Source of the DNA: Jimgerdemannia flammicorona
Taxonomy: Eukaryota
Reading direction: 5' to 3'
Assembly: GCA_003990765.1 (NCBI GenBank)
Contig: RBNJ01000182.1
Coordinates: 1-37,747 of the forward strand
DNA: 37,747 nt
The notes beneath the pieces are model-generated. The model saw nothing but the letters and a program-made list of their open reading frames with translations, searched no databases and was not told the DNA's origin. The position numbers and the translations under genes were made by a program. Of this stretch, positions 1 to 35,639 are shown one piece after another (the first letter of the stretch is position 1; each line of letters begins with the position of its first letter).

Positions 1-10
1 AAAAAAAAAA

Positions 11-1819
11 AAGACCAGCTTAGTTATATTTGCGTATTGCTGCAGACAATACCTAATTAGGAAATTTCATAAAGGAGTTAAGAGTAGGACCTAACAGGGA
101 GCGGATTTACTTAAGAGTGGTTTGTGGGTTATTTGAATAGGTTTATTCACTATTTATGATATTGCTATACTAGGAGTAGTTGTGTAGAGAGATATTATGA
201 GGAAGTATTCAGGAATGTTCTTGTGTGTTCAAGTCTGAAATTCTGAGGTCTGGGGGAGGGGGTATTTATACCTAGTGAGGGGCTATCTGGACTATACTAG
301 ATATGGATGTAGCACTAAGTGCTTTGCTGAGTCGGAATGCAGTCATATAGTATAAGTGTGATCTGATATGTCAAGAGATCGTCTGACTGCTGAGTCAGTT
401 CACAGTCACATCGTACAAAGCTAATCTAACTATACTATGACTACTAGGCTATTTATGGGTTTAGGTGCTGTCTGGGTAGTCCTCAATGACATCACTATCA
501 ATTGCATCATCTCTGATGAAGTAGTCATTCAGAAAAAGTAGTTCATGGATTACTTCTCCTTGTTCGCTGAGGTAATAATACATTGGAACTTTGTCTCCAT
601 CCCACAAGATGGTGTCATCTGTCTCATATGCTGGGTAAGGTGTTGGTGGGTGAAGGAGGGGTGCATCGTCTTCACTTTCTTCAGATTCACTGTCTGCATA
701 CCTTCTGTAGGTTACAGTACTATGAGTTGCAGGATTGTAGTAAGCTGGTGGCTGTGGTTCATGTCGCTCATACTTAGGTAGTGGAGTGGTTGGTTCGATC
801 TCAAGGGTTTTTTGGAGGTATAGGTTGTATTCTCTGGTCTCTTCATTGTAGTTGAAGTAATTGGGGATAAATGCTGGTTAGTATTCATACTAGTGGTCAT
901 TGTCCCAATAAGTCTCGTAGGCTGTTATGAATTATTGTAAGTTCATCGGCAAGGTTGGCAGTATGATCAGAGTTGGTAGAGATCCTTGGCTAGAGGTTAT
1001 ATCGGCATCAGAGGGATCATTGTCTTCTGCTTCGTCTTTATTGAAGTAGATTATATCGTAGATGTCCTTCATGGTGTATCCAACTTGGGGCATTTGTAGG
1101 ATATGATCGTTGGGGTGTGGAAAGGTTCTGTCTGTGGTTTTGACATACTTGAGGTACTTGTGGTTGAGTTCTTGTATCATGTCATCGATTTGGCCATAGG
1201 ACAGGGTAGCAACCATTTCAGCTATGGTAACTTGGAGGCGGAGAATAATGGTACTGTACTCATAGAAGAGTTCTTGATGTTTGCAGGTGATGAGCTTCTG
1301 GTGTTGAGACATCTCGGTAATATCTGTATCATGGTGGTGTTCAACCATGTCTTCTAGGAGGCAGCCAATCTGGTAGTAGCTTGAGATTTGTCTGATTTAG
1401 TGGGCCTTACTAAGCATGTTCAGAGCATTCCAACAGGCTTCTATGAAGTAGAGGGGTGCTAGACTATGGATATTCATGAGAGGCAGAGGGGGTGTGGCTT
1501 AGTTGACAATGGTATTCCAAATGTCAGCATGGATGCAGGTATAGATCTCGGTGGTCATGTTTGTGTATTTGGAAGTTATGGTTGTTGTTTTGTTTTGGTT
1601 CTCTGATTTGACATGTTTTGGTGCTCAGTATATATACATTTGATCCTGATTGGTAAGATTCCATTTGTGTAGATCTTGTATTCTATGACTTCATATTGAC
1701 TCAGCTTTGTGATCAAGCAGGTAATTTCCAGATTTGTTCAGAGGTCGTGTGTGATTTCAGTGGCTTGTTTGGAGGGTGACCTGTAATTTCGGTGGCTTGG
1801 AGGTTGTGTGCTTACAACT
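11..1819 (-). mobile_element. Long LTR of Ty3/chromovirus-like family A (copy 1; the internal region would continue left of the window)
   Basis: 11-~520 is the reverse complement of ~21735-22242 (TATAAATACCCCCTCCCCCAGACCTCAG, AATAAA, ...AACTAAGCTGGTCTT). 1770-1819 (rc AGTTGTAAGCACACAACCTCCAAGCCAC) matches 20972-21020. Exact termini are uncertain. Confidence 0.75.
932..1558 (-). pseudogene. Degenerate LTR(U3)-encoded ORF of unknown function, family A version
   Basis: Extending ORF 932..1348 upstream in frame gives MTTEIYTCIHADIWNTIVN*ATPPLPLMNIHSLAPLYFIEACWNALNMLSKAH*IRQISSYYQIGCLLEDMVEH..., which aligns by eye with the LTR ORFs of families B and C. Confidence 0.55.
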
Positions 1820-2319
1820 AGTATATACTTAATCAAAATTTATAAACTATTATCTAGCTATTATGTATAAATATCTCTAGTAGAAATTTAAAATAAATTA
1901 ATCTTAGTTTAATATATATATATATTATCACATAGTAGTTGCTGAGTCCTTTAAATATACCAGATTCTCTTCAAGGTATATCTCTTAGACTAACTCAAGT
2001 TTGTTATAAGTAAGTTCTTATTGGAGTGCCTTCTCAAGGTCTTATAGTCCTCAAACTTCTTATCTTTAACTGTCTTATTATCTCTTAGATTACTTATAAG
2101 AAAGTGTATATAAGTGAACTTAACTGACTTTATTTCAGAGGAAATAAGAGAGATATTTATACAAAATATAATTCAATGGTTGCTAAGATATAAAACTAAA
2201 TATAAATTCCAATATCTAAAATAAAATACCAGGATAGGAAAAACTGCTAAATTCCAAGGTCAGCACTGATGGTTATATAGGTTTAGGATGCTAGTATAAT
2301 TTTGATGGTATAGAAAAAT

Positions 2320-2412
2320 AGTGCTGGAATAATTCAGTGTCATATCAGAATACCAGTACTGGTATAATTCAGTATTACATCAGAATGCCAGTGCTGACAT
2401 AATTCAGTATCA
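2320..2412. repeat. ~35-bp tandem repeats in LTR B upstream of the TATA box (putative enhancer array)
   Basis: Unit ~AGTGCTGGAATAATTCAGTATCACATCAGAATGC(C/T); about 3 copies here and about 4 in the 5' LTR (19040-19168), which explains the 35-bp LTR length difference. Confidence 0.8.
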
Positions 2413-2422
2413 CTAAAGAACT

Positions 2423-3238
2423 TTAGAGCAGAATGTTCAAGACCATAGGGGCTTCATTCTTATCAGAGGTCAGAATGTCTTTGAAGGAGATGAGGTCTGC
2501 AAATTTATCATTATTGTATATCTTATGTATATTATATAGGATGATATCATCACCAATAATGTCATTATGTTTGGTGGTGGTGGAAACAAGGAGGTCTAGG
2601 GCTCTCCAGTCTATGAAATTCTCTTCCACAAAATAGGGGACAAATGTGGAGTCTTGGAGAGGTCTAACCTGGATGCTTGGGTCTTGGAATACTAAGATCA
2701 ATCTTTGCAGGAATTGGTCTAGATTGTTCTGGAAGATGGGATGTCAGAAGTCTTCTACTTCATCACTGTTGAGGGTGATAGTGGACTGGGCTTCTGTAGC
2801 CACTCTGGCTTTTAGTATATTGATATGGTGGACTAACAGATCTCTGAAATCTGAGACTCTAACATACTCCAAGTTGAGGATCAACTATGACATATATCTG
2901 AAGATCTGATATATCTTCTTAGCTATCTTTATTTTACATATATCTATAGGAATGGCATCTTATAGCTCTTGAGTACTGGCTTGTGGGAACTCCCAGCAGA
3001 GGAGGTTTCCTATTTCATACTCCTGTCATATTTGGAGGTATTCAGTAGCAATAGTGATCCTTATTTCTATTTTACAGCAATAAAGGATATAATGATAAGG
3101 GTCACCAGTACCCAGGTTGACACTAGGAGTCCTTCTTGAGTGGGTTCTCATGGCTCTTCTGATGTCTTGGAATATTCTTTCTTCAACTGAGATGTCTTGA
3201 TAGTTCTTTGATCTTGAGATTTGGTGAGCAGCAGGCAT
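2423..3238 (-). pseudogene. 272-codon LTR(U3)-encoded ORF, family B 3' LTR copy
   Basis: ORFs 3026..3238 and 2423..2701 are in the same frame; ATG to TAA spans 816 bp, identical in length to 19178-19993. Most internal stops are sense codons (TGG/CAA) in the other copy. Confidence 0.7.
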
Positions 3239-3480
3239 TTTATTTATAGTAAGTCTTTGAGCTATTTTGGGATTAGTGGGTCTTATTGGTTACTGCTACT
3301 GCAGTTTCTTGATCCTTCTTTTATATTCCTCAAGATACCTATATTATGGTCACAATGACTTATAGTTGGTCATCATTGCTCATCTTGTATGCCATATGAT
3401 CTTCTTGTACTTCAATCTGGTGGCTTATAAGGAAAGACTGTCTCCTGTGCTGATGTCATCATTCTGGAGTCACTATTACA

Positions 3481-3490
3481 TCTTCCTCCT
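3481..3490 (-). promoter_or_regulatory. Polypurine tract of element B
   Basis: Minus-strand AGGAGGAAGA directly abuts the TG start of the 3' LTR. Confidence 0.8.
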
Positions 3491-3779
3491 GAATAAGGAT
3501 CTTCTTGAATATTATTATTCATTAGTCCAGTCCTGAAAAATTTGCTGATCTCATAACCTCTGGCAAGAGGTTGAAAAGTGGTATTTATAGGCTGGTGTCT
3601 TCCCTTTGTATTTTGGCATAATATTGAAAAGTCACTCTCTTTATATAGAGCAAGGGTCTGATTCTGATCTTAATCAATTAATTGATGGTTTGAACTCCTC
3701 TGGCTTGAAAGTCTCACAGATGAGTAGTTGCTGGTACTGTATTCCTTAGAGAATGGTCTAGACAGATAGCCTGCTAGTT

Positions 3780-4018
3780 ACAAGACATACTGTTATGATT
3801 TGTAGACTAGAATCTCATGGGTGATCATCATGTTTTGCTTCTCTTATATAGGTTTATGGTACTTCTTGAGTCTGTTTCTATATACCATGGTAGGCAGTAT
3901 GGTCCCTGAGATTTTTCTAAGCCAGAAGATAGTTCTCTTGATATCTTGCACATAGAAGAGTTCTTCCCATTTGGGCTCCAGTTTTCACAACTATGAGGCT
4001 TCTATCATATTTCAATAC
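3780..4018 (-). pseudogene. C-terminal (GPY/F) part of element B integrase
   Basis: Removing the hAT plus one TSD copy restores IREKVLLY*NMIEAS*L*KLEPKWEELFY, a decayed KLxPKWxGPF motif, across the junction. Confidence 0.75.
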
Positions 4019-4044
4019 AATAGGACTAGTGCTCTGAATGAGTC

Positions 4045-4460
4045 AATTCGAATCAAATCTAGATTCGATTTGTCACATGACAGTTTGATTTGAATCTCAA
4101 ATCTGAAGCCATCTGAATCAACTTGGATTTAATCTGAATCGCCCCATCTGAATCACCCCATCTGAATCACCCATCCGAACCACCCCAATCCGAATCACTC
4201 AATCTGAATCACTCAATCCGAATCACCCCATCTGAATCACCCCATCTGAATCACCCATCTGAATCACCCATCCGAACCACTCTAATCCAAATCACTCAAT
4301 CCAAATCACTCAATCCAAATCACTCAATCCAAATCACTCAATCCAAATCACTCAATTCGAATCCTCCAATTCGAATCCTCCAATTCGAATCCTCCAATTC
4401 GAATCCTTCAATCTGAATCCTCATCTGAATCCTTCAACCAAATCCTCCAATCTAAATCCT
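4045..4460 (+). repeat. Left subterminal repeat array of the hAT (putative transposase-binding sites)
   Basis: Many 13-14-bp units ATC(C/T)(G/A)AATCAC(C/T)C, grading into ATTCGAATCCTCCA. Confidence 0.85.
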
Positions 4461-4556
4461 CTACATGACTCATATGCCAGACATGTCCACAACACAACAC
4501 ACACACACGTATACACATACATACATACACATGCATATGCAAACATGCAAACACAC

Positions 4557-7139
4557 ATGTCGACAGATCAGTCTTCAATAGTTCACAGTACCAATGATGC
4601 TTCAAGTTAAACATTCCTGATAGTTCCACACCTTCCATGCAATCCTTGCTCCGAAATCTGGCAACATTGTACTAAGATAGAAGATAATGTTGTTTGTAAT
4701 TATTGCAGGTAAAAAATTAAGATGCACCTATTGACACTTTGTTTTGACACACATATAATATTGTTTTGACACATACATGATATTGTTTCATCCACCCCCA
4801 TGAACTGCACCAGCCAGAAGTTCAAAATGCTTGGGGGTATGACTTCGAACATGAATCGACACATAAAAGACAAGCACTCTGACAAAATCAAAAAGAACAC
4901 AGAGACAAATAAAATCAACATCCAAGCTATAGTGGGTACATTTATCTGATTGCCTGACTATTTCTGTACCAACAATGCTATTTAATCAAAAATTTTAGCC
5001 ATACTCTTCAGCAGAATTTCAAAATCGGCTTATTCGCTGGATTGTGTATACAGACCAGCCATTCACAACCATCAAGAGTGATCAATTGCATAGCATCTTT
5101 GGCCTCCTCAAGCATGATTTATATTTGCCAAGTGCCGATACTATTCACAAAGATGTCCTGGAGGCCTATAGGAAGGAGCATGACAATCTCTGCCAGACAC
5201 TTCAGGTAAAATAAGGGCAGCACTATGACCTTTGCAAGCTGAATTATATAAAAGAGCTCACCAATTTAACCTCACATTCAATAAGCAGAATTCGGCAGGC
5301 AAAATTTTATTTATGATTGACACATGGACATCCCCCAATGCAATTTCGTTTCTGGGCATTACCGGTCATTGGATTGACCTCAATTGGCAGCTTAAATCTC
5401 TCACCCTTGACTTCATCAAACTTGCTGGCCCTCATTCTGGAGACAACATCACAGATGCTTTTATTAGTTGTATCTGGGAGCTTGGGATTACTACCAAGGT
5501 AAAAAAGGGGGGCTTGCTGTCAGGTCAGCATTTTGAGGGAGGTCCTAAACCAAACTAGATTTTATTGGTTACTTATTTTCACATAAATTTGTCAACCAAA
5601 TATTTCAAGTACAGATTTTGGCCATTACAATGGACAATGCCACAAACAACTTAACATTTTTCCAAGGTTTAGCAGCCAGCCTCAAATAGGAAAACATGGC
5701 CTTTAGTGCAGAAAGCTGCCGTATGTGATGCCAGGCCCACGTACTGAACCTCGCTGTTCAGGACTATCTTATGCACATAGACAAAACATCCAAGAGATAA
5801 GGGACCCTGAGTATAATTTCCAAGCTGCACAAACTGGTTGTGTTGATCTGATCATCCCCACAACAATGAGACAAATTTGCTGTGCAGTATAGGGTAATCA
5901 GTTTAGCCCTGAAAGAGCTTATATTGGATGTCTGTATACATTGGAACTCAATATTTGCAATGATCCAGCATGTGCTGGAGTTTGCTGTGGTATGCATCCT
6001 TTTTTTCTTCAGTTGGCTGAAGTAACTGTTTCAGATGATAGAAGATTTATTTTTTTTTAAAAAAAAAAAAAAGCCAATAGATTCAATGATGGCTGCCAAC
6101 AAGGAAATACAGGCTGAGGCTCTAGGTAAAAGCGAGTGGGATGTACTTAGGAATGTTGTCAGAGTTTTGGAAGTAAGTGGTGGTTGCCCTAGCTCCATAC
6201 TCATTTTGTCTGCCTCTGCACAGTGCAACACCTCACCACATATAACTGCTAGTATTTTGACGATTGTATGAAGGATATAGTCAAACAAACGACCCTGACA
6301 ATAAGCTCTGCGATACCGGTATACAACCTTCTGATTGACTGGCTAGAGGACAAGCTTGAGGACAGGCTGGAGGGTTGTAGTAATTTACAATTAAGCCCGG
6401 ATCAGAGAGATGCCATGGAGGTTGCTCTAAGCAAGCTTAGAAAATACTACTCCCAAACAGATACTGCTGTATACTCAATCAGTACAGGTATATCGATGTT
6501 GGCATATGGCCATTGCCCCTTCCAAAATAGAGGAAACTCCGCAAAAACTCACTCTCCTTTTCTTCGAACAGTGCTGGACCCATGCTTAAAGCTACAATAC
6601 TATAAAGATCAGAGCTGGGAGCAACACTTCATTGAGAGAACCAAGCAGGCCATAATTGAAGTGTACCAGAAAAACTATGCACCACCACAAGGTTCTGGCC
6701 GAAGTTCAAATGAATATGCCAAGGGATCCCTCCTGTCTCACATTTACTTTGGCAGAAAGAGGAAGAGGAAGCCGTCAGTAGAAGAGCTACTGTCAATAGA
6801 CGAACTTACCATTTACCTCACCAGTGACTGTGTGGTCCTGCTGGAGGGCACGGAGGTGCTCAACTGGTGGAAGGTGGGTTGTCAGGCAGGTGTTGGACCA
6901 ATTTAACCCACCAATCTAACCACCACTCTATCTACCAGGGTGTGCAGCTGTATCAAACAGACTTCTCCAGCCTGTATGGTATGGCTCGGGACTATCTGGC
7001 GATTCCTGCCTCCAGCGCTCCTGTCAAGCAAGTGTTCTCAGGTAGGGTGGACCTTGTTGCCCCAAAGAGGTGTGTGCTGAATGCTGAGACAATCTGGGTA
7101 TATATGTGTCTGAAGTCTTGGTGGGGCTTGGGCCACTAA
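4557..7139 (+). pseudogene. hAT (Ac-like) transposase with N-terminal BED zinc finger; multi-exon and inactivated
   Basis: ATG at 4557. BED finger SEIWQHC...VCNYC / intron / ...TSNMNRHIKDKH. Then DTWTSPNAISFLGITGHWID, ITMDNATNN, CQAHVLNLAVQD (CxxH), LDVCIHWNSIFAM, LDPCLK, LNWWK, ARDYLAIPASSAPVKQVFS (catalytic ER decayed to KQ) and CLKSW. GT-AG introns and several stops. Confidence 0.93.
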
Positions 7140-7182
7140 AATTCGATGGGTCTATAGATAAGTTGGTTGGCCTTGTGGAATA

Positions 7183-7797
7183 TTTAATACCTTTCAAATT
7201 AATAAAAGGAAAAAAACCTGAGGACTCGGCCCGGAGTTTGTGGCCAAAGTGGGGCAGAGTTGGTGGCAGTGGCAGCGGAGGGAGTGTACAATATTTGCAG
7301 CCCTTAGCCAGCAGCAAGGGGCAGCCCCAAGCTGCCAGTGCCTGGGTCAGTGGGTGGGTCAGTGGGCGGGTCAGCAGAGGGAGCATATAAAATTTGTGGC
7401 CCTCTGCCAGCAGTAAGGGGCAGCCCCAAGCTGCAAGTGTCTGGGTTGGGGGGGGAGGCGGAGGGAGTATGCAAAATTTGCAGCCCTCTGCCAGCAGCGA
7501 GGGGCAGCCCCAAGCTGTCAGCGCCTGGGTCAGTGGGTGGGGCAGGCGGAGAGAGTGCACAAAATTTGTGGCCCTCTGCCAGTGGCATAGGGGCAGCCTC
7601 AAGCCACCAAGGAGTCCAGGGTGGAGGGTGTTTCTGGCAGTCGGAGGGTACTTCTGGCGGTCAGAGGGTGTTTCTGGCAGTTGAAGTTGCTGGTTCGGGT
7701 CCCACAGGCACCCCGGCCCTGCACTGCAGCACCGCACCAGCGGCACTATAGAGTAGGGCTGAGGGGCCAGTAGGGCCCTGTATAATGGCTAAGCTAG
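7183..7797 (+). mobile_element. Non-autonomous Helitron-like element with internal ~85-97-bp tandem repeats
   Basis: 3' end is a GGGCC-agtag-GGCCC hairpin, ~15 nt, then CTAG|T (7794-7798), with a longer decayed GC stem-loop at ~7711-7766. The 5' end A|TTTAATACC may be a decayed TC start. About 3.5 repeats of ATTTG..GCCCTCTGCCAGCAG..AGGGGCAGCCCCAAGCTG lie at 7293-7605. Confidence 0.55.
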
Positions 7798-7892
7798 TGC
7801 TACATAAGAGGTGCCTGACCCAACCCCTCCACATAAGACTGCCTAACTCATACAAAATGGCTGCCTAATCCTCACGAAAGATTGCCTAACCC

Positions 7893-8883
7893 TCACAAAA
7901 ACTGCTCCACCTGCTGGTCCCAGGCCTTGATGAGCCTGTCATCTGTTGTAAGTGCGATGACTGTTGTGTCTGAGCTCTCCTCGAAGGCGACGGTGCCATG
8001 GTGATTATGTGGTTAGAATAGGATGGCCATGTTGGCTGCAAATGGGACCCCGAAACTGTAGGTGAGGTCATACCAGACTCCGCTACTATCCTTCCAGGTT
8101 GGGCCCTTCCTTTCTGGGATATAAAACATTACCAGGGTGATGTTGTTGTCTGTGTGTGTAGGCAGAGAAAGGTTGTGCTCGACATATCCTGATGTGACGC
8201 AAGCGTACGGTTGGGTGAACCCTTGGTCCAGGACCTCATACTGCTAGGCTGTGCTAGTGGATGCCTACCCTTGGTCCAGCCCTGGGAGCCCCAGCTTGGA
8301 AATCTGCCAAAACGGACAGCAACCAGTTAGTCCTTTTTGTGTTCAGGGGGCAGAAACCCCCCAGGCCACAGAAACCCCCCAGGCTGCAGTACCCTAAAAA
8401 AGCAGAGCTCCTCACCTCATATAGTATGCTAAATTGCACCAAGAATATATGTACAGCCGTGCCGAGATCACCACCAAGCTGGCCTGCCATACACTCTACC
8501 AATCTGCTCAAAGAACCCCAGATCATAGCTGCCATTGCCGCACAGGCCATGTCGTGCTCATGTGCAGTTTGCTCTTTGATGGCACTTCTAAAGTTCTGGT
8601 AGGAGTACAGAATCTTGTGCATCCCTGGAATTGTATCAAAAAGAGTATGTTGGCAAAGAGTGTGATTTATCTGGGGAGGGGTTAAAAAAAAAAAGAGAGA
8701 TGAGTACAGGGGATTTCGGAACCCATCCTTCGCCAGTGTTGCAGTATACCTAATTTCTATCCAAACTCCCCTTCCTTGCTTTTTTCGCCCCCTCTTCCCT
8801 GCTACCCAGTATTTGACACAATCCTCGCAAATCTCGTTGATATGGCGGTGAAGCTCATCACCATAGAGATTCCTTACCACCAT
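7893..8883 (-). pseudogene. 3' exons of the hAT cargo gene: candidate TET/JBP-like 2OG-Fe(II) dioxygenase domain
   Basis: MVVRNLYGDELHRHINEIC...GRGVWIEIRY...DMACAAMAAMIWGSL...LYE, then an intron (8415-8304: GTGAGG, GACTAAC branch, CAG), then ISKLGLPGLDQG[48-bp insertion]FTQPYACVTSGYVEHNLSLPTHTDNNITLVMFY...SGVWYDLTYSFGVPFAANMAILF*PHNHHGTVAF...VIALTTDDRLIKAW. HTD is at 8156-8148, HGT at 8000-7992 and the stop at 7895-7893. Confidence 0.65.
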
Positions 8884-8976
8884 TTTTTTTTTTTTTTTTT
8901 TTTTTTTTTATAGTCTCTTGGACTGCCCTTTATTACCGAAGTCTATAATGTAAACAATACAAAGTCACCCCTATCC

Positions 8977-11900
8977 TCAACCGATGCCCCGGGGGCCCAA
9001 ACTCCCCCCCTCATCCTCTCCCTGCCCGAAAACCACCCAATTACCCACTACCTGAACCCTTCCACCACTCTTCTGGGTGATACGCCGCACCAGACCCCTG
9101 TGGTACCCCCCACCCATCTCCCAACCCTGCCACCAGCTATTCAAAATATCCAACATCAACCATTCCCACTGGGCCATCTTGTCATCAACCCCGATCCAGT
9201 GCCTGTCCTCAAATACATAAACCCAATGCCCAGCCAGTCCAACCCACATAGCCAGAGCCCAACTAAGGGTCTGCCATTCGTCCCCAACTCCACTCACCAG
9301 TCGCTGGTGGAGCTCTCCATATTGCCCCCCTTCCTCTCCTTCCCTGATACCCAGCCCTACCCTGTCCATAATACCTCTCCAAAACTCCCCCAAAACCTTG
9401 CATTTACCAAGCCAATGTTCAGGTGTTTGTACCACTCCCCCCTCCTGACCAACATTGAAACAATTCTCACACTCGAATGCTCCACCATCCACCAAGTGTC
9501 CAGACCGATAATTCAACATCACATTCCGCTGTAGGACCTGCCACCACACCACTCAGAACTTGGGGGACAGCCACTGCCACACCCATTTGCTCCAAAGCCA
9601 GAGTCCATTCCAATCCCACTCCTCCCCAATTCCAACCCTCTGCCAGACTTCTGGCCACAGGTCTCCACCTAGGCCTCACAGACACTTCAGGCCCTCGCCA
9701 AGCTAAAAGTCCTCCACCAGGGCCCCACCCAATAGAAGCCTGTCCCACCGCCACATCTATGGTCCCCAAATCTCCTCGGCTTCATCACCTCACCACCGAA
9801 GTCCAATCTTCTTAGCACCATCCACCACCCCCCACTAAAAGCCTGTAAACCGCATCTTCCTGCTCCCGTCCATGGCCACCATCGCAAGCAGATCACTGGA
9901 GCCACCATGTGGGGAGTACCAAACCTCCCACAACCTCTGCATGAGTGGCACCCACTCCTGTCCCCTGAGCTCACTCGCCCTTCGCAGTCACCAGGCTCTC
10001 AGACATAGAAGCCACTTAGTAAAGTCCACTAGGCCCAGCCCACCTCTTTCCAAGGGCAGTGTGAGCACCTCCCAACCAACCTGGCTTCACCGCCCTCCCC
10101 AGATCCATGACCTTGCTATCTTCAACAACTCCTTAACCACCCAGGTTGGGAAATCCAAATGATATCCAACATACCACAGCTTCGGCATCCAGTACATATT
10201 CAACACCATCACACTTCTAGCAAGAGATATATGCCGGCCTCCCCATCTCAGCAAGACATTACCCCACTCCAGAAGTTTATAGTCCCACCATGCCTGGGGA
10301 AGAAGAGATCTGAATACTAAGAAGTAGATTCCCAAGTAGTACACTGGTTCACCCGCTGGTACCACTATCCCAATAATATTGCCACCAACAATTCCAGTGC
10401 CCAGCACCAGTGTCTCGCATTTGTGCCAGTTCAGTTTAGCACCAGAACCCCACTCATACCATTCCACAGTCCTCTGTAACTCTCTCATATCCCCCAAGGA
10501 GCCCAGCCTGACCACCATATCATCAGCAAAGGCCCCCACCTTCCAGTTCACCCCTAAGATATCTAAGCCTCCAATCTTATGCCGAATTCTGTCCAGTAGT
10601 GGCTCCAGGGAAAGAGCATACAATATGGGTGACAAGGGGTCCCCTTGTGGTACCCCACATCCCAGGGGAAAGATCACCCCCCGGTGGCCATTGATGACCA
10701 ATGCCACCTGACTATCCTCCAAGAGGCTGATTAATGATCTTTGGACCCCTGGCGGGATGCCAATCTGCTTCAGCACTCCTTCCAGCCATATTCTCTGCAC
10801 TCTATCATAAGCCTTCTCTTGGTCCAGAAACACCAATCTGCCATCCACTCCTGTCACCCAGGCACCTTCAATCACTCCATGAACCTAGGCTGTCTCATCT
10901 CGAATCAACCGACCACTGACAAACCCATGTTGTTCCACACCAAGAACCTACTGAGCAATGCCTTGCAACCTCATCACCAAGATTTTCATCACCAATTTGC
11001 GGTCTATATCGAGAAGCATAATTGGCCACCAGTTCCTCCAGTCCTCTCGCCTACCCTTGTCCTTAAAGAGCAAAGAGACCAGCTCCAAGCACTGTCCCCC
11101 AATCCAGGCACCAGACTGAAGAACTCCATCACACATAGCAGTCATTTCCTCTAGCACCTCATCCACCCCCATCATCTTCTGCCAAAAATCCCAGGGAAGC
11201 CCATCCTCTCCTGGAGCTGTCCCCTTACTTGTTGAGGCCACAACCCTGCAAATCTCCTCACCACTCACCGGGTCCCCCAATGCCCCAAGTCCCATCACAG
11301 GGTCCAGGTGCCAATCTCCCAGATGTCTTTCAATGTTCAGAGCATCCAATCCCCCATCCTTCTCACTCCAAAGATTCCTCCACCAGGTTCGCAGTAGGTC
11401 CAGAATCACCGGAGTCTCCACCACTAGCTCACCATTCTCGTCCAAAACTCCCTCCCACCACTGCCTCATTTGTCATGCTTGTAACAACCATGACAAGAAT
11501 CTGGTAGGCCTCTCCCCCTCCTCAAGCCCCTGCCACCACAGGTGGGCCACCATTCCCTGCAACTGCTCCTCCTCCTCCCTGCGTAGTACCCCTTTGAGCT
11601 CCTCCACCTCCTGCCAGATCCTCGCAATATACCAATCAGTCATGGCCCCACCCTCCAGCACACCTGCCCATCTCCCCATGAGTGCTGCCAGATGCCGCAA
11701 GGCCCACCTCACCCACCGCCTTTGCTGGGCACACTTCCCTTTCCCTGCTTCCCTTCAATACTCCTGAGCCTTTACCTTCAGCCTTCTCCAGTGGTCCCCA
11801 ATCTCCAGTCTTTGTTCCCACCACCTACCTATGTTTCCAATCACCTCCGATTCCCATCCCTCCCACAACACCCTATCCTCCAACAGGGAAGAATTTAGTC

Positions 11901-12639
11901 GCCAATGTCCAGGCCTCTCCTCATTTCCCCCAAACCTCCCCCCTCCAAGTAGCCCCCAGTGATCAGACCATGGACACCATATGACTTCCAGTGCCAATCA
12001 GACATCTGTTCTCCAACACTCTGCCATTAGTACCCAGTCAATCCTGGAGCCCAGTCCTGCCACCCAGTGGGTGTATATCTGCCGATCAGCCCAAAAATGT
12101 CTTCCTAAGTCTACTAGAGAACACAACCTCTCCATCTCCAACCAGTCACCCAACCCACCACTTTCACTCCACACGCCTCTCCCTCTATCAGTTCTGTCCA
12201 GCTCCTTATCCCATACCATGTTGAAGTCACCCCCCATACAGTCTACTCCAACTTCTCCCAACACACCAGCCTCTTTCAATCTGCGGATCCATTCCACCCT
12301 CTCCCCTCTCTCAGCTGGGCAGTAACAAGACCCGACCATCAGCGGGCCCCATCCAGGCCTCTTCCACACTCCCCACACCACCTGAGACCCCCAATGTCCA
12401 ATGTTCCCAATGTCCCCCATCCCTTTCCAAATGAGAATACACACTTTCCCCCTCCAAACTGCTGTGCCCCCCCATTCCTTAGTCCAATCCTGTAAGTCCA
12501 CATCTGCCTCATAACGAACATCCTGCAGTAAGAAGAGGTCTGCATCCAGTCCCTTAAGCCAACCAAATATATACTTCCTCCTAGCTGACCCCTGTAGCCC
12601 ATTAACGTTCAATGAGAAAATCCTAGTTGTATTGTTCAT
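8977..12639 (-). pseudogene. LINE ORF2: APE endonuclease + reverse transcriptase + C-terminal CCHC
   Basis: SLNVNGL, GGDFN, RIDWV, SDH; APGEDGLP, WWPIMLLDIDRK, LDQEKAYDRV, GVPQGDPLSPILY, FADD, YLG; CENC...EHWLGKC. Broken by stops. Confidence 0.95.
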
Positions 12640-12670
12640 ATTGAAGAAATGTTGCAATAGAGACCCCAAC

Positions 12671-14588: not shown

Positions 14589-14676
14589 GTTGTTAGTCGT
14601 TGGACACCAAAAACGTTGTAAAAAGTGTTGTCTGAGTCTTGTGTCACCCAAATGTTACTGGTGAAAGGTCCGCTTG

Positions 14677-15744: not shown

Positions 15745-15944
15745 TGCAGGGTGAAAAATGAGTAGACTGGACCAACGTATGAATTAAGGGCTGCTGTTTT
15801 GTTTGCTTGTGATGCAGCAGGAAAGAACAAAGAAAAAGAACAAAGAAAAGAGAGAGAACAAAGGAAAGGGTGATGTTACCAAAGTGCGGCAGAAAAAAAA
15901 AAACAAGAGCGAAATGAACAAAAGAAAGGGTGACATCACCAAAG

Positions 15945-16140: not shown

Positions 16141-16163
16141 TCATTCAGAGCACTAAATAGGAC

Positions 16164-18620
16164 CTTTTCTCTGATTTGGATGAGTTTTAGGGTCTTGTGA
16201 TTCTTTTCTGCATTTTTCTTTATCAGCACTTGTGACTTGATAATATAATCTTCAGCCTTCTTTCTGATTTGGTATAGTCTCCAGATTTCTGCATCAACTT
16301 GTCTCTAAGTTAAGTCTAGATTTATAGCTGAGGTTCCATCAGAATCTTCTTCTCCAAAGAGCAGTTCTCTTGGAGTAAAGTGTGTACTCTATGACTGTAT
16401 ATCTCATAGAACAGAGAGAGCAGTTGAGAGGTAGTTATTCCAATTCTTGTATGTCTCTGAGATCTTTGCTAGAATGTTCTTGAGGGTCTTATTGGTTCTC
16501 TCTATCTATCTATTTCCTTGAAAGTGGTATGTAGTAGTCTTGATGTGCTGAATCTTTTATTTCTGATATATTATCTCATAGAATCTATTGACAAATTCTG
16601 TACTATAGTCTGTTGCAATTTGCTTCAGTATCTTATAGTGGCAGATAATTTCTTAGTATAGGAAGTCAGCTATAGAGAGGGCATTGGCTTCTTGTAATGC
16701 TCCTGCTTCTATCTATTTTGTAAAGAGGTCTACAATAACTATAATATAGTAGTTTTCTGATAGTATTACTGGTAGTGACCCAATAATATTCATTGTAATG
16801 TGGTAGAAGGAGATAGGCTCAATTCTTGATGACCTAGGTGCCTGGTCTTGCTGATCTTATTTCTGTTTTTGATACTTATCATACTCTTTGACAAATTGGT
16901 GTAGGTCTTCTTTTATTTTGGACCACTACATGGTTCTTCTTGCCTTGTCATATATGTTGGTTCCTCCTAGGTGTTCTTGCTCATGTACTTTCTTCATTAC
17001 TTGATACTTCTTATGTTTAGGTATTACTAGCTTTCCTCCTTTTCTGAGTATAGTGTTGTCTAGTTCAAACTGTTTCTAAGTCTGGTTGATGATGGTGATT
17101 GTCCAGAGTTCAAGGTGATTGAGTATCTTCTACTGTCCAAGATAGCTGATTAATCCATAGTATAACTCCTTATTCATGTTAAATAGTCTTGATGGGAGTG
17201 TTTCAGGATGTCCTTGAGAGTGCATCAGTATTGGTGTTGGTTCTTCCTGAGCAGTGCTTGACAGTATAGTCATACTCTTGCAGTCTGTAGATCTATCTGG
17301 TATATATTTCTTTGAGGTTCAGAGTGTGGAATAGTCAGATAAGAGCAGAATGGTCTGTTTGAATGGTGAAGTATTTCTCAGCTAGATAGTAGTAGAACTT
17401 ATCTACTGCCCAAACTACTGTTAAGCATTTGAGCTTGCATGACTTGTAGTTCTGTTCTGCTCTACAGGTACCTTAGCTTACATAGGAGATGACATATTCA
17501 TGTCCATCTTTCTTCTGAGCTAAGACTACTCCAAGTTCTATAGCACTCACATCTGTCTGCAGGATGAATTCTAGGTTCCAATCTGGTCTTCTGAGGATAG
17601 GTGCTTGGGTCAATCTGGTCTTGAGTTTATTGAAGATTTCTTGGCATTTCTTGGTCTATTTAAATTTGGTTTCCTTCTTCAGTAGCTCATAGATAGGTGT
17701 TATAATTTTAGAGTATTCTTTGATGAATCTTTTGTAGTAGCTGGCCAGTCCAAGGAAGGCATGGACTTCTGTAGTTGTTCTGGGTCTCAGGTAGGCTGCA
17801 ATAGCCTCAATCTTCATAGGATCTGTATGGATTCTGGTCTGGTTGATGAGGTGTCCTAGGTAGGCAATTTCTTGAGCTACAAACTTACATCTCTTAGGCT
17901 TAATATAGAGGCCATACTCCTTGAGCTTCTTGAGAGCTAGCTGTATATAATTGATATGTTCTCATGCAGTATTACTGAAGACAATCACATTGTCAACATA
18001 GATAAAGAGTCATTTTCCAATCTTATTGCTGAAGACTCTATTCATCATTCACTGGGAACTTACTAGGGTATTGCACATTCCAAATAGCATTCACAGGTAG
18101 ATATAGGTGGCATCAGATATGATGAAGGCTGATTTTTTGAATATTTGATAAGAGCTGCCTATCCTTCTTGGTAATTATATTGAGTTTTCTGTAGTCAATG
18201 CAGAGTCTTGGTGCAAACTCTCCAGGTTTACTTCCTTTCTTTGGGGCAAGGACAATGGATGAAGTCCAGAGACTGATAGCTTGCTTAATAATTCTGACTT
18301 CTTCTATTTCCTTGAGTTCTGCTTGCAGTTATTCTCTATAGATAGGTAGTATAGATCTGGCTTTCTGGTAGAGTAGATGGGCTTGGTATCACTAGTGTCA
18401 ACTTCATAATAGTACTTGAGTTCTTGATTGTGGATATCCCTGAAGTCTGTAGTAAGTACTTCTTTATTCTGGTGCAGGATCTTGAGAAGTTGTTCTTCTA
18501 GGGGAAAGTTTTCTCTAATGATATATATATGCTTAATTCTTACAGGGGTGACTCTTGTAGTCAGGGTAGTTGTTGTGGTGGTTGTTTGTTTTTCAGCTTG
18601 AAAGTGAGGGATTCATCTTG
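16164..18620 (-). pseudogene. Element B pol relic: reverse transcriptase, RNase H, integrase
   Basis: RT: WTSSIVLAPKK..RLCIDYRKLN, MLFGMCN, YVDN (YVDD). RNase H: FILQTDVSAIELGVVLAQ, TDHSAL. Integrase: HEQEHLG (HHCC relic), VDLFTK, HFQGNR*IERTNKTLK. Internal deletion in RT. Confidence 0.93.
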
Positions 18621-18627
18621 AATCACT

Positions 18628-18642
18628 AGCCAATGGGCACCA
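18628..18642 (-). promoter_or_regulatory. Putative primer-binding site of element B
   Basis: Minus strand reads ...TGACA|ACT TGGTGCCCATTGGC, with TGG 3 nt after the LTR end. The tRNA was not identified. Confidence 0.65.
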
Positions 18643-18645
18643 AGT

Positions 18646-20235
18646 TGTCATATAGTAGTCACTGAGTCCTTCAAATATGCTAGATTCTCTTTAAGGTATA
18701 TCTCTTAGACTAACTCAAGTTTGTTATAAGCAAGTTCTTATTGGAGTGCCTTCCCAAGGTCTTATAGTCCTCAAACTTCTTATCTTTAACTGTCTTGTTA
18801 TCTCTTAGATTGCTTACAAGAAAGTGTGTATAAGTAAACTTAACTAACATTATTTTAGAGGAAATAAGAGAGGTATTTATACAAAATATAATTCAATGGT
18901 TGCTAAGATATAAAGCTAAATATAAATTCCAATAACTAAAATAAAATGCTAGAACAGGAAAAACTACTAAGTTCCAGAGTTAGCACTGATGGTTGTATAG
19001 GTTTAGGATACTGGTATAATTTCAGTAATATAGGAAAATAGTGCTGGAATAATTCAGTATCACATCAGAATGCTGGTGCTGACATAATTCAGTATTACAT
19101 CAGAATACTAGTGCTGGCATAATTCAGTATTATATCAGAATACTGGTGCTGGCATAATTCAGTATTACTAAAGAACTTTAAAGCAGAATATTCAAGACTA
19201 TAGGGGCTTTATCCTCATCAGAGGTCAAGATGTCTTCAAAGGAGATGAGGTCTACAAATTTATTATCATTATGTATCTTATATATGTCATGCAGAATGAT
19301 GTCATTGCTGATGATGTCATTATGTTCAGTGGTGGCAGAAATAAAGAGGTCTGGGGCTCTCTAGTCTATAAGGTTCTCTTCTACAAAATAGGGGACAAAT
19401 TTGGGGTCTTAGAGAGGTCTAACCTGGATACTTGGGCCTTAGAATACTGAGATCAATCCTTGCAGGAATTGGTCTGGGTTGTCCTGGAGGATAGAATACC
19501 AGAAGTCTTCTACTTTGTCACTATTGAGAGTGATAGTGGACTGGACTTCTGTAGCTACTCTGACTTCTAGTATATTGATATGGCAGGCTGATAGATCTCT
19601 GAAATCTGAGACTCTAACAAACTCTAAGTTAGGGATCATCTATAGTATATATCTGAAGATCTGATATATCTTCTTAGTTATCCTTATTTTATATATATCC
19701 ATAGGAATAGTATCTTGTAGCTCTTGAGTGCTAGCTTGTGGGAACTCCCAGCAGAGGAGGTTTCTTATTTTATACTCCTGCCATATTTGGAGGTATTTGG
19801 TAGTAATGGTGATCCTTATTTCCATTTTATAGTAGTAGAGGATATAATAATAAAGGTCACTAGTACCCAGGTTGATACTAGGAGTCCTTCTTGAGCAGGT
19901 CCTCATGGCTCTTCTGATGTCTTGGAATATTCTTTCTTCAACTGAGATATCTTGGTGATTTCTTGACCTTGAGGTTTGGTGAGCAGTAGGCATTTTGTTT
20001 GTAGTAAGTCTTTGAGCTATTTTGGGATTAGTGGGTCTTATTGGTTACTGCTACTATAGTTCCTTAATCCTTCTTTTATATTCCTCAAGATACTCATACT
20101 ATGGTCACAATGACTCACAGTTGGTCATCATTACTTATCTTATATACCATATGATCTTCTTGTACTCCAATCTAGTAGCTTGTAAGAAAAGGCTATCTCC
20201 TGTACTGATGTTATCATTCTGGGGTCACCATTATA
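18646..20235 (-). repeat. 5' LTR of element B (1590 bp)
   Basis: Colinear direct repeat of 1926-3480; ends TGACA before the PBS. Confidence 0.9.
19178..19993 (-). pseudogene. 272-codon LTR(U3)-encoded ORF, family B 5' LTR copy
   Basis: ORFs 19640..19993 and 19439..19639 are contiguous in frame; the 816-bp span equals the 3' LTR copy. Confidence 0.7.
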
Positions 20236-30825: not shown

Positions 30826-30864
<39 letters not shown>

Positions 30865-32178: not shown

Positions 32179-32180
32179 TG

Positions 32181-32460
32181 TAACTTCCTCACAATATCTG
32201 AGTATACCCAGTATTCCATATCAGCTAATTGGTAGACTACTATGAGAACCTATTCTCCAAGCATATAGTTCTACTACCACCCCCAATTAGAATCAATAAT
32301 CATAAGGAATTCAAAATTGAGGAAGTACTTGACAAGGTCTGCAAATATCTCAAAACAGTTAAGTGGTTTTTTCTCATCAAGTGGAAGGGTTACCCCACTC
32401 ATGATACTATCTGAAAAAAAAAAAAAAAGCTCTAGAGAATACATGCAAAGTCCTCCAGCA
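32181..32460 (+). pseudogene. Integrase C-terminus with chromodomain (chromovirus, element A)
   Basis: LPHNI*VYPVFHIS*LVDYYEN...PPPIRINNHKEFKIEEVLDK...FLIKWKGYPTHDTI*: the HPVFHVS motif followed by a chromodomain. Confidence 0.88.
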
Positions 32461-32594
32461 TGACATGGAAACACTCATCCTCCAGCAAAAGAAGGAACTG
32501 CAGCTCTAACTGAAATATATAATACCAAACATTATAGAAAAAAAGAATATCATAGTTAACCAACAAGAAGACACTTAGGTGAAGAATAATCTAG

Positions 32595-32940
32595 TATAGT
32601 ATAGTAAAACATATTTGAATAACTCCATTTCATGCCATCTGTATCATCTCTGCTAGATGATAACAGATGCTTCATATGGAACTTAGGAAAGCTGACAATG
32701 TCAAAACCAATTTAAGCTCATCCACATAACAGATATTATTACTAAAAATTGCCTCAGATTATAAGAAATACTATTTCCAAGAGATTCAAATCCCCAGCTA
32801 CATATAACAATGAGAGCTCTCACCTTAGATAAGAATGACCAGTCCTTGTAAATATGTCAACCAGATAAAAAAAAAGAGGACTAAGACCTGTTAACCCTGT
32901 ATAACTATAACTCTAAGTAGTGATATCTTTAAAATCAAGA
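32595..32940 (+). repeat. Partial copy of family A LTR sequence (probable 3' LTR, truncated by element C)
   Basis: Colinear with ~21335-21700 (e.g. AGATATTA.TACTAAAAATTGCCTCA, ATAACAATGAGAGC.CTCACC.TAGA). A purine run AAAAGAAGGAA lies at ~32487-32497. Confidence 0.65.
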
Positions 32941-32948
32941 TTTTTTCA

Positions 32949-34377
32949 TATAACTAGCATATGTCCTACTTACAGCAACAAGTCATACATTCTGATAGAA
33001 AGCATGATCAAAAGAGGATTATACCAGATAGGTAAATAAGTATAAATACTCAAGGCAAGAATACTCTATAACTCTTATCTCCCTCTCCTCATAAAGAAAA
33101 GACAAGACAAGAATACCTGCTACCTGCTGCCAAACTGTCTGCTATAGCCAGCCCTTCCTAAGCCAGGTTGACCACCTCTTTGAATATATCTAGATTGCTA
33201 TCTAAGGAAGAAACTGTTACTCTAAGATCCTTAACCTCTCTAGCCCAGATCTAGGACAGTATGTTCTTGACTACCATAAACTCATCAAAAAGATCTATAT
33301 ACCTTGCTACCAACTGCCTAGAGATCTGGCATAAATATGAAATCAGTCACCAGCTTTTTCAATATACAAATAGCCTACCTACTGACCAGGTCTCAGACTG
33401 GACCTACCTGGATAGACATAAGTAAAGACTTATTAAGAAGGTCTATCAAATTATATACCATATATTCTTTATGATCTCTAATCTCAACTATGTATATACA
33501 ACTGAAGGACTTCCAGAACCTCTTCTTCTTTAAGGTTAATAAGCTAGAGATCATGATAGCCCAGAAAGCCAACTCCTAAATTACTCTCAAGTTTACTGAT
33601 ATTGAGCCCCACTAGAGCTCTCTCCTGAATGATAACTCAGACCAATGGCTTCAAGGCCTCTCTGATCTTCTTGAAGAACTACTTATCTGAATAGATATCC
33701 CCGGGTATGAGGATCAAGAACTCTACTTGAATGGTCCCAACTACATCAGATGGAGAACTCCTATACCAGTATCCATATAAATATAAGAATTATTTGCAGA
33801 CCTCATTGACTTCTCTATTCTGGACAGTGAGCCATCAGTAACCACCCCCCCCCCACTACCACTGAAGAAGATGGTAACAATACTGAGAAAGACTCCCCAC
33901 TTTTCTCTCCCCTAGTTCTCAATTTCTGAATCAATGAGAATATTGATTTCTAAGGAGAAAAAGATATAATAGAATAAATGAGTGAACAGATGAGATATAA
34001 TGAGCAATCATATGACCTAGTAATAATGTTATCATATAATTAAGTATAATATATAATATTATGAATGATATGAATAATGCAAATAAATGATATTCAGCTT
34101 ATCTCCAATAATTGGTACTACAGTATAGTACTACAGCAATCAGCACCACAGTAACCAGTACTACAGCAATACTGATCATTGCCTAGCAATAGATATCATA
34201 ATCACAAACCTCACTATAGTTATCAAATTAGTCACTTATACTTAGTCAGAAATTATAAACCAACTTATATAAATACCCCTAGTTTCTATTCGAAATAAAG
34301 CAGTTTAAGTTTAGTCCTTGATTTAAGAATCAAGTTCTCCCCACACATATACATTCTTCTGAGTCTTAGTAATGACA
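32949..34377 (+). repeat. Probable 5' LTR of Ty3 element C (~1.4 kb)
   Basis: Same layout as LTR B: ORF, short repeats (34115-34170), TATAAATACCCC (34268), AATAAA (34294), ending TGACA. The partner LTR is not in the window, so boundaries are inferred. Confidence 0.55.
33113..33953 (+). pseudogene. LTR(U3)-encoded ORF, family C version
   Basis: LEIWHKYEISHQL...LDRHK*RLIKKVYQII...MISNLNYV...NKLEIMIAQKANS*ITL...LNDNSDQWLQGL aligns with family B LQIWQEYEIGNLL...MDIYKIRITKKIYQIF...MIPNLEFV...NILEVRVATEVQSTITL...LQDNPDQFLQGL. Frameshifted. Confidence 0.7.
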
Positions 34378-35639
34378 TCTAAGTGACTCTAGTATTTCTG
34401 ACTAAACTCTAGAAGCCTAGCTAACTTCTGCCAGAACTGAGACTGGTATATAAATTCCCAAAGACTTAAGTAAACCTATTGAATCTGAATTCCAAGATGA
34501 ATTCAGTCTGTGCATAGCAAAGAACAAGATCCTTAAAAGATAGGGCAAAAGAGAAAGATCTTTAAAAGATAAAGTACTATTGCTATAACTACTTTCAAGC
34601 AAGTGCTTCTTCAAACTGAAGGCTTTTTGGTATACATTATATACTAAGTCTCTAAGTAATAGTCTTACTTCTCTAATTATCCAAAGTATAAGAGAAGAGT
34701 AGAAGTGAAAGTTATTATACAGAGATAGCCCTAGCTATCTACTTATCACTAATAGTTCTAGATCTATTACAAAAAGTCACCTATGCCCAGTAATACTAGA
34801 TAGCCAGATATCTACAAGACTATATAATGGAAAGAGTCACTGGAGTTAGAATTAAAGCACTCAAGACAATCAGTATGATCTCTACTATAGTGATCAATTG
34901 AAATATACCTCAGGTAAGAGCTACTAAGTAGTAGAGAAATAGTGATACTATAGAGGAACTTACTAAGAAGTTCATCAAAATAACAGCTCATCTAGGAGAT
35001 ATAGTAAAGAAAATTAAAGAAAGAGACTACTACCTAGTTTAGAAGTTTGCTGCTACCTCAGATAAGAAGAGAGATATTTATTATACTTGTGAAGAAGGTT
35101 ACTACTTATATAAATATATAAGTGAAATTAAGTACAAGGCTCAATTAAGCAATGCTATATACATAAAATAAGAAATAGGTCAATACTATTACCTTTGAGG
35201 AGATTGGGAAATCAGATGAAGAAAAATAAGAAGCCTACTCTATCAAGACTATTAAGAAAGATGTTTGTAAGCAACTTTACAAGAAACTACCAGAGTGACT
35301 CAAGAAGAATTCTGTGGAAAAGCAGATGGAGACTGCTATAGAAAGTTAAGATGAAGAGATATAGAGCTAGAATAGGTTATTTAAGGTATCATCTGAGGAA
35401 CTACTCCAGTTAGTGAAGGAGAAAAAGAGAAGAAGCTTTACAAAACTAAGATCTTTAAGTATGATATCTTCAAGGATCTCAGTCAATGTAATCTTTAGCC
35501 AATTGGCAGAAATATCTATATTCAGACAGCAAATGAAATATAGACTTACTGAGATAACTAAGGAGTAAGGTTAGAAGATAACTGAGACTAACAATGTTCA
35601 AGAAGACTCAGGAGAAGAGAGTAAAGATAATTATAAGAC

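What the first reader, a model, noticed from the sequence alone, without database searches (positions are those of the whole stretch)
2423..3238. Three different Ty3 families encode a homologous protein inside giant LTRs
Seen: both B LTRs contain an 816-bp sense ORF without net indels whose stops mostly complement each other (one TAG is shared). The presumed LTR of C (33113-33953) is clearly homologous at the protein level (IWxxYEI, KKxYQI, MIxNLxxV, DNxDQxLQGL). LTR A copy 1 (932-1558) is more weakly homologous (IxxDI...QIxxYxIGxLL). Protein similarity with little obvious DNA similarity implies selection. Established: U3-encoded genes are rare, with MMTV sag and lentiviral nef as analogies. 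Inference: an undescribed accessory gene, perhaps a transactivator or silencing suppressor, shared between a chromovirus and non-chromovirus lineages.
Basis: partly seen in the sequence, partly recalled or inferred. Interest (0 to 1): 0.75.

Follow-up and report, generated by a model that had tools for sequence, protein, structure and literature searches.

The report
Mobile accessory gene in retrotransposon LTRs
Several unrelated jumping-gene families in this genome carry the same unknown protein gene with what looks like its own promoter, usually inside their terminal repeats but in one family just outside, an arrangement otherwise associated with complex retroviruses.

Summary
The gene is real; one claimed location is wrong. 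Both LTRs of Ty3 element B hold an 816-bp ORF, dead here by point mutations. B and C proteins are homologous (E=3e-36, 33% over 214 columns); A is a remote relative over ~125 N-terminal residues (at most 3 of 3000 shuffles reach it). Two more families in this genome (E, F) carry it 200-280 bp inside their LTRs. ORF and integrase relationships disagree, so the cassette moves between chromoviral and non-chromoviral elements. Selection is purifying (cross-family dN/dS 0.12-0.28). A TATA-like box lies 60-100 nt upstream in most families; a second TATA lies downstream. The protein has a confidently modelled helical core, an acidic tail, no membrane segment, and no Pfam, PDB or fold match. Best guess: a separately transcribed trans-acting regulator of element transcription; function untested, expression not shown. 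This scan noted the same family before on other pieces of this genome (unchecked AI notes).

The parts
2423..3238 (-). Accessory ORF in the 3' LTR of element B (271 aa, four internal stops)
1926..3480 (-). 3' LTR of element B (1555 bp); 4-bp target duplication at 1922-1925
3481..3490 (-). Polypurine tract of B
3319..3325 (-). TATA-like box 81-87 nt upstream of the ORF start (putative ORF promoter)
   Evidence: (36 of 36 B copies)
2129..2161 (-). Second TATA box (2154-2161) followed by AATAAA (2129-2134): putative U3/R promoter and poly(A) signal
2305..2420 (-). Three to four ~35-bp tandem repeats between ORF stop and second TATA
   Evidence: sequence
19178..19993 (-). Accessory ORF in the 5' LTR of element B (271 aa, four internal stops)
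18646..20235 (-). 5' LTR of element B (1590 bp); PBS-like site follows at 18645
16158..18645 (-). Internal region of B; this copy lacks the gag-protease-dUTPase stretch present in full-length relatives; continues at 3481-4025 beyond a ~12-kb insertion
33113..33953 (+). Homologous ORF of chromovirus C, INTERNAL (stop abuts the PPT); start codon mutated, stops and two frameshifts
33041..33048 (+). TATA box upstream of the C ORF (putative internal promoter)
   Evidence: (39 of 42 C copies)
33965..34719 (+). True 3' LTR of C (~755 bp here, 787-802 bp in relatives), with TATA 34268-34275 and AATAAA 34294-34299
32179..32510 (+). Integrase end and decayed chromodomain of C (copy is 5'-truncated at 32179)
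   Evidence: Chromo hit in relative L116; none in the window copy
32603..32907 (+). Segment of C's 3' region similar to the integrase end and 3' untranslated region of non-chromoviral families E/F (72-78% DNA identity in cleaner C copies): likely recombination footprint
461..1558 (-). Remote homologue in the LTR of chromovirus A (365 aa; homology limited to the first ~130 residues)
1..1816 (-). LTR of family A (~2.0 kb, cut by the contig start), second TATA at 263-270

Best explanation
A mobile accessory-gene cassette of Ty3/gypsy retrotransposons: TATA-like promoter, short leader, 270-365-codon ORF. In B, E, F and A it sits in the 5' part of the LTR, upstream of the element's main promoter, so it is duplicated at each replication and stays in solo LTRs; in C it sits just before the PPT. 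SHOWN: location, homology, purifying selection, exchange between lineages, conserved TATA-like motifs. INFERRED: a short mRNA runs from the upstream TATA to the LTR poly(A) signal, separate from the genomic RNA, and makes a soluble protein (basic N-terminus in most members, ~200-residue helical core, acidic tail). GUESSED: the protein acts in trans in the nucleus to switch on, or keep open against host silencing, the downstream LTR promoter, as foamy virus Tas does from an internal promoter. I put 0.93 on 'functional accessory protein gene', 0.75 on 'own promoter', 0.45 on 'transcription or chromatin regulator'.
For: Selection: between unbroken natural copies dN/dS about 0.12 (B vs L144), 0.15 (C vs L143), 0.28 (B vs C), dS near saturation; within all 5 families the ORF frame gives lower pN/pS (transitions only 0.38-0.79) than the two shifted frames (0.96-1.86). 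Distinct gap runs that are multiples of three: 36 of 83 inside the B ORF, 14 of 106 outside; 26 of 33 B copies keep frame over many lengths. Promoter: TATA-like motif 60-100 nt upstream in 36 of 36 B, 39 of 42 C, 8 of 8 F, 11 of 31 A copies against mean bin background 0.04-0.10, also in 2 of 2 metagenome loci; second TATA followed 16-19 nt later by AATAAA at 128 places in the held, partly overlapping loci. Exchange: integrase vs ORF identity E-F 71% vs 30%, B-E 33% vs 59-63%, A-C 51% vs ~21%, B-C 26% vs 39%; integrase tree splits (A,C) from (B,E,F) at 100/99 while the ORF tree does not; C carries an E/F-like integrase-end segment. Protein: tails hold 12-32 acidic against 0-8 basic residues in 7 of 7 members, no 19-residue hydropathy window above 1.07; core model pLDDT 81, pTM 0.70. 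Analogy: PMC3185757 passages.
Against: No functional or expression data. No DNA-binding fold or motif recognised in the model. Basic N-terminus is weak in C, A and P0021 (3-4 K/R in 40 residues). Within-family selection is weak in B and E (transversion pN/pS 0.63 and 0.59; for B the +1 frame gives the same 0.63) and weaker than the RT control (0.11). Cross-family pairs were picked as unbroken and aligned through the protein, which favours low dN. The F motif (TATTTAA) was added to the pattern after I had seen F; A has a variant matched in only 11 of 31; E's background is high (0.22). An alignment-free reading of two TATA boxes per LTR is not unusual in itself (PMC3601003 passage). My own hhalign run with other settings scored A at shuffle level (17 vs mean 15-18).
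Confidence: 0.45

Rival explanations
1. Counter-defence or replication cofactor acting after transcription: the protein protects the RNA or cDNA from a host mutagenic or restriction system, or helps particle assembly or reverse transcription (like foamy Bet or lentiviral Vif; recalled).
For: Copies are riddled with transitions (110 of 113 differences between the two window ORFs), so host pressure on C residues is strong; B and C also carry dUTPase, a uracil-avoidance enzyme; fast divergence and swapping between lineages fit an arms race.
Against: No motif or fold link to any such protein; the transition load may be plain methylation decay after insertion; a separate promoter kept in solo LTRs suits an early regulator better (inference).
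Confidence: 0.22
2. Suppressor of RNA silencing or RNA export/stability factor that binds the element's RNA.
For: Soluble helical protein with basic N-terminus in B, E, F and P0028; a 300-360-bp 3' untranslated segment is conserved at DNA level between C, E and F and could be a cis-acting RNA site.
Against: Net acidic protein; no RNA-binding fold found; B lacks a detectable copy of that segment.
Confidence: 0.15
3. The ORF is the first cistron of the genomic RNA (upstream TATA is the real LTR promoter, ORF lies in a long R/U5), like a 5' extra ORF.
For: The upstream TATA is as conserved as the downstream one in B; no start site is mapped.
Against: The downstream TATA is followed by AATAAA at a fixed 16-19 nt and is the only one in C's ORF-less LTR, which marks it as the U3/R promoter; in C the ORF cannot be 5' at all.
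Confidence: 0.08
4. Host-directed factor (addiction module or growth modulator) that helps the element indirectly, or a passenger kept for a cis reason.
For: Presence in solo LTRs raises gene dose to thousands of copies (candidate counts 970-3818 per family), as with MMTV sag (recalled).
Against: No partner gene, signal peptide-like or membrane segment seen; protein-level conservation with saturated dS excludes a purely cis role.
Confidence: 0.1

Closest known systems
Sense additional ORFs between pol and 3' LTR of LTR retrotransposons (aORF-3S; PMC7264820, main text read)
   Same: Family C has exactly this position and orientation; present in all copies examined.
   Different: The review places aORFs in the internal region and links sense ones to env-like membrane proteins; this protein has no membrane segment, and in four families it lies inside the LTR.
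Maize Grande gene23 (PMC7264820, main text read)
   Same: Accessory gene of unknown function with its own promoter; nuclear protein proposed to be regulatory.
   Different: Antisense and internal; no homology tested or expected.
Foamy virus tas/bet (PMC3185757, passages read)
   Same: [quoted passage not shown]
   Different: A retrovirus with env; no sequence or fold match found; activity here is untested.
MMTV sag and lentiviral nef (recalled, no call)
   Same: Coding sequence in U3, duplicated at both ends.
   Different: Retroviral, act on host immunity, membrane-associated; unrelated sequence as far as the searches reach.
Bdelloid rotifer ORF3s shared between retroelement lineages (PMC5408684, abstract and outline read)
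   Same: Same accessory ORF type in unrelated LTR lineages, many with dUTPase; modular exchange.
   Different: Those ORF3s are recognisable enzymes or env in the internal region; none reported inside the LTR in the abstract.
Fungal dUTPase-bearing Ty3/gypsy elements and 'add. ORF' (PMC2864245, section 5 and passages read)
   Same: Chromoviral and Ylt1-like lineages, dUTPase at variable positions, a figure legend lists an additional ORF of unknown function.
   Different: The text read gives no position or sequence for that ORF; figure and supplement not seen, so identity with this family is untested.

Membership tests
Ty3/gypsy (Metaviridae) carrier elements | LTR pair with TG..CA-type ends, PPT, PBS-like site, target duplication | tested here: met
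   (B 4-bp, C 5-bp duplications); E and F: LTR start and PPT only
Ty3/gypsy (Metaviridae) carrier elements | pol order protease-RT-RNase H-integrase | tested here: met
   C: protease, RVT_1, RNase H, chromodomain at the 3' end; F: RVT_1, RNase H then rve; A and B: integrase last
Chromoviruses | chromodomain after integrase (families A, C) | tested here: met
   PF00385 E=4e-16 (A), 2e-12 (C)
Chromoviruses | chromodomain after integrase (families B, F) | tested here: not met
   rve and Integrase_H2C2 only; E groups with F by integrase, not scanned itself
Ylt1-like lineage (B, E, F) | RT phylogeny with reference elements | not tested
   no reference sequences fetched
env-like sense aORF | transmembrane segment | tested here: not met
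   maximum 19-residue Kyte-Doolittle mean 0.47-1.07 in 7 of 7 members
env-like sense aORF | position between pol and 3' LTR, sense | tested here: met
   family C only
U3-encoded accessory genes (sag/nef type) | ORF wholly inside the LTR (B, E, F, A) | tested here: met
U3-encoded accessory genes (sag/nef type) | ORF wholly inside the LTR (C) | tested here: not met
U3-encoded accessory genes (sag/nef type) | ORF upstream of the genomic transcription start | tested here: inconclusive
   motif evidence only
Retroviral accessory proteins (Sag, Nef, Tas, Bet) | sequence or fold homology | tested here: inconclusive
   no listed match; absence does not exclude
Foamy-type internal promoter with transactivator | separate promoter for the accessory gene | tested here: inconclusive
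   positionally conserved TATA-like box; no transcript mapped
Foamy-type internal promoter with transactivator | protein activates the LTR promoter | not testable with these tools
   needs a reporter assay

The most novel reading that the evidence does not exclude
A group of Ty3 retrotransposons has independently evolved the regulatory logic of complex retroviruses: a two-promoter LTR whose upstream unit makes a transactivator or anti-silencing protein of a new fold. The unit is traded as a module between chromoviral and non-chromoviral lineages and across the PPT, and because it survives in solo LTRs it could let thousands of otherwise dead repeats supply a trans-acting factor, helping to explain the expansion of these families in one genome.
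Probability: 0.3. Interest if true: 0.85.

Novelty: new variant of a known kind. Interest (0 to 1): 0.63.

Why it matters
LTRs of retrotransposons are treated as non-coding, and annotation tools look for extra ORFs only between the LTRs. Here at least four high-copy Ty3 families keep a selected protein gene inside the LTR and a fifth keeps it just outside, which shows the PPT boundary can shift across a gene and that accessory cassettes travel between distant Ty3 lineages. The protein family has no named relative and a confidently modelled core with no structural match found, and unbroken natural members exist in databases, so its function is directly testable with reporter, localisation and binding assays.

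Tried and rejected
Pfam: 0 families for the two B copies, one sub-threshold hit for A (Hormone_recep E=0.006); three weak hits (E>=0.04) among 17 members; rejected. PDB sequences: best E=0.17. Foldseek: no match at E<=0.001 in PDB or BFVD for model 1 or in BFVD for model 2; VIA-align against 48,161 chains: best Z 4.5 (rmsd 3.1, 75 aligned) and 3.8 (rmsd 2.7, 80 aligned); this shows neither a new fold nor a different one. ESM Atlas: only 'hypothetical' or unrelated small families, scores 0.80-0.83 and 0.92-0.94 with recognition below the mark. Homodimer prediction: no answer, score 0.27 against mark 0.32. RNA: no RNA holder listed; three runs of contigs were laid, two only guessed to be RNA; one covered the LTR deeply and the integrase hardly at all, but contigs cannot show expression. 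Gag or pol origin of the ORF: the family profile hit only the known ORF places in six frames of the window and 15 loci. Idea that 32179-34720 is one 2.5-kb LTR: rejected, its left edge is a truncation inside integrase. Idea that 20977-22492 is a second A LTR with a new U3 gene: it is an A-type LTR shell holding an E/F-like integrase-end fragment. Shared GTCAC/GTGAC-type 5-mers upstream of the ORF in 4-5 of 5 groups (18 vs null mean 3.4; 6-mers not significant, 42 of 500): mononucleotide shuffle is a weak null, kept as a lead only. P0028-type subfamily has no close copy in this genome (best 39-40%). Literature searches that did not list a retrotransposon with an LTR-internal sense ORF: (open-licence library only).

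Full report
Setting. The window is contig C182 of G000, a 231-Mb eukaryotic assembly. It is a nest of decayed repeats. The host was not identified here; earlier AI notes call it a fungus, untested.

Element B. A direct repeat at 1926-3480 and 18646-20235 (86% identical) has TG..CA-type ends, a purine tract before the left copy, a PBS-like site after the right copy and a 4-bp target duplication. Four other elements in hand (L032, L035, L037, L039) show the same LTR pair around gag-pol; the window copy lacks gag-protease-dUTPase and is split by a ~12-kb insertion. Each LTR holds an 816-bp frame from ATG to stop with four internal stops, one codon shared. Of 113 differences between the two ORFs, 110 are transitions. 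The family is abundant (3708 first-look candidates, 40 scored), and many copies elsewhere have no internal stop. The observation at the given coordinates is correct.

Element C. B and C proteins align over 214 columns at 33% identity, E=2.9e-36. But the repeat at 32179-34720 is not an LTR. Its left edge is a truncation inside integrase; other copies continue into integrase. In two full-length elements the two ends share only 802 and 787 bp, starting right after a purine tract that follows the ORF's stop codon, and target duplications flank exactly those ends. All 21 ORF copies in the 20 loci lie directly before this LTR. A metagenome contig (L143) has a C-type ORF in the same pre-PPT position. 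The gag-pol at 34720 onward belongs to another element.

Element A. Its ~2.0-kb LTR (pair in C69, 93% identical) holds a 365-codon frame, 1558 to 461. It does not match B pairwise or B or C profiles alone (E 0.2, 0.037). As relatives were added the same register improved to E=0.0023 and 8e-4. A HMMER profile without A scored four A copies at 5.9-13.9 bits over residues ~8-131; 0-3 of 3000 shuffles and 0-3 of 3000 block shuffles reached those scores. Against this, my own hhalign run with different settings put A at shuffle level, and an earlier narrower profile was borderline. I put remote homology of the N-terminal part at about 0.85; the C-terminal half of A is unrelated as far as seen.

Wider family. 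Protein searches gave only unnamed metagenome proteins: 6, 7 cluster representatives among 1.84 billion, 10, and 1 for A. Two of them led back to further families in G000: E (P0012-like) and F (P0030-like). In both, copies share a sharp left boundary about 270-280 bp (E) and 207 bp (F) upstream of the ORF, preceded in 3' copies by a purine tract, so the ORF is inside the LTR. One subfamily (P0028) has no close copy in G000, so the family reaches other organisms or samples.

Carriers. A and C have chromodomains; B and F do not; B and C carry Pfam dUTPase, and A shows a dUTPase-like stretch by eye in the printout. Integrase and ORF identities disagree: E-F 71% vs 30%, B-E 33% vs 59-63%, A-C 51% vs about 21%, B-C 26% vs 39%. 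The integrase tree (6 rows) separates (A,C) from (B,E,F) at 100/99; the ORF tree (12 rows) places C among B, E and metagenome members, F apart from E, A far out. C also carries, after its own chromodomain, 300-360 bp that are 72-78% identical to the integrase end and 3' untranslated region of E and F. The simplest reading is exchange of 3' cassettes by template switching between co-resident elements (inference; the mechanism is discussed for LTR halves in PMC10787394, passages read). Direction is not established.

Selection. Between unbroken natural copies, dN/dS is about 0.12 (B vs L144), 0.15 (C vs L143) and 0.28 (B vs C), with dS near saturation; pairs with F give 0.27-0.6 and are unreliable. 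Within families found by DNA search (B 28, C 23, A 25, E 13 copies; F 13 found by protein), transition-only pN/pS is 0.79, 0.74, 0.58, 0.66, 0.38 in the ORF frame and 0.96-1.86 in shifted frames; transversion-only values are 0.63, 0.21, 0.36, 0.59, 0.54 against 0.11 for RT of C. For B the +1 frame ties at 0.63, so B's within-family signal is weak, as expected when most change is post-insertion decay. Gap runs in B are multiples of three in 36 of 83 cases inside the ORF and 14 of 106 outside.

Promoter layout. A TATA-like motif lies 60-100 nt upstream of the start codon in 36 of 36 B, 39 of 42 C, 8 of 8 F and 11 of 31 A copies (mean bin background 0.04-0.10); E shows it too but on a background of 0.22. 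The F variant was added to the pattern after I saw it. A second TATA lies downstream of the ORF in B, C and A; in B and C it is followed by AATAAA at 16-19 nt (128 places in held, partly overlapping loci). C's ORF-less LTR has this second one, which marks it as the U3/R promoter. This predicts a short ORF mRNA from any LTR, solo LTRs included, and an internal promoter in C. [quoted passage not shown]

Protein. AlphaFold2 on 30 aligned sequences gives a 206-residue core at pLDDT 81, pTM 0.70: eight helices and a short C-terminal hairpin; the full-length model shows a disordered tail. Tails are strongly acidic in 7 of 7 members, N-termini basic in 4 of 7, and none has a membrane-like window. No Pfam, PDB-sequence or structural match was found (see Tried and rejected).

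Mechanism. The layout, an accessory gene downstream of pol or in the LTR with its own promoter upstream of the main one, matches foamy viruses, where an internal promoter drives Tas, which then activates the LTR (PMC3185757, passages). With the acidic tail this makes a trans-acting transcription or chromatin regulator my first choice (0.45). Post-transcriptional counter-defence (0.22), RNA-level suppression (0.15), a 5' cistron (0.08) and a host-directed role (0.10) remain open.

Known work. The review of extra ORFs in LTR retrotransposons (PMC7264820, main text read) describes them in the internal region, sense ones as env-like. Rotifer elements share ORF3 types between lineages (PMC5408684, abstract). 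Fungal Ty3 elements with dUTPase and an unnamed extra ORF are recorded (PMC2864245, section 5; figure and supplement not seen; PMC3248453, passages). Eight searches of the open library (listings seen) listed no retrotransposon with a sense ORF wholly inside the LTR; subscription papers and Repbase were not searchable. MMTV sag and nef are recalled. A sequence look-up of earlier scan notes found nothing; a word look-up found 32, 8 shown, all from this genome, describing the same arrangement; my reading was formed before that call and these notes are not independent evidence.

Verdict. A real, selected, mobile accessory gene of an unnamed family; inside the LTR in four families, internal in one. 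New variant of a known kind; interest 0.63.

Noticed in passing
L104, L032, L091 (pol of C, B, A); window ~36100-36230: A short Cys/His-rich module lies next to dUTPase or protease in three distant Ty3 families and in the fourth element of the window; no Pfam hit covered it. Possibly a second shared accessory module.
   Followed up: no
window 20977-22492 (+): A-type LTR shell whose ORF-bearing part is replaced by an E/F-like integrase end and E-type PPT/LTR start; other copies exist (L065, L097, L107), so it is a mobile chimeric derivative.
   Followed up: partly
window 32603-32907 and 21342-21642; L143 1-110: A ~300-bp 3' untranslated segment conserved at DNA level across C, E and F; candidate cis-acting RNA or DNA element, structure not tested.
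   Followed up: partly
family B flanks: 4-bp target duplications with a strong NTAT preference, whereas chromovirus C has 5-bp duplications.
   Followed up: partly
window ~4026-16157: A ~12-kb DNA-transposon-like insertion with inverted ends and internal 14-bp repeats splits element B; it holds hAT-like transposase fragments (5229-7139) and a LINE-like element (about 8900-14670, minus strand), with a second, more decayed LINE copy at about 23460-28640.
   Followed up: no
window 29809-32168: A ~1-kb inverted duplication (80%) around a poly(T) tract, with one arm much more mutated than the other.
   Followed up: no
L171 (family F LTR): The 3' part of F's LTR is an array of ~175-bp tandem repeats; F copies keep many CpGs and look younger than the other families.
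   Followed up: no
window 20431-20947: A ~510-bp foldback element with inverted ends, also present in L061, L097 and L107.
   Followed up: no
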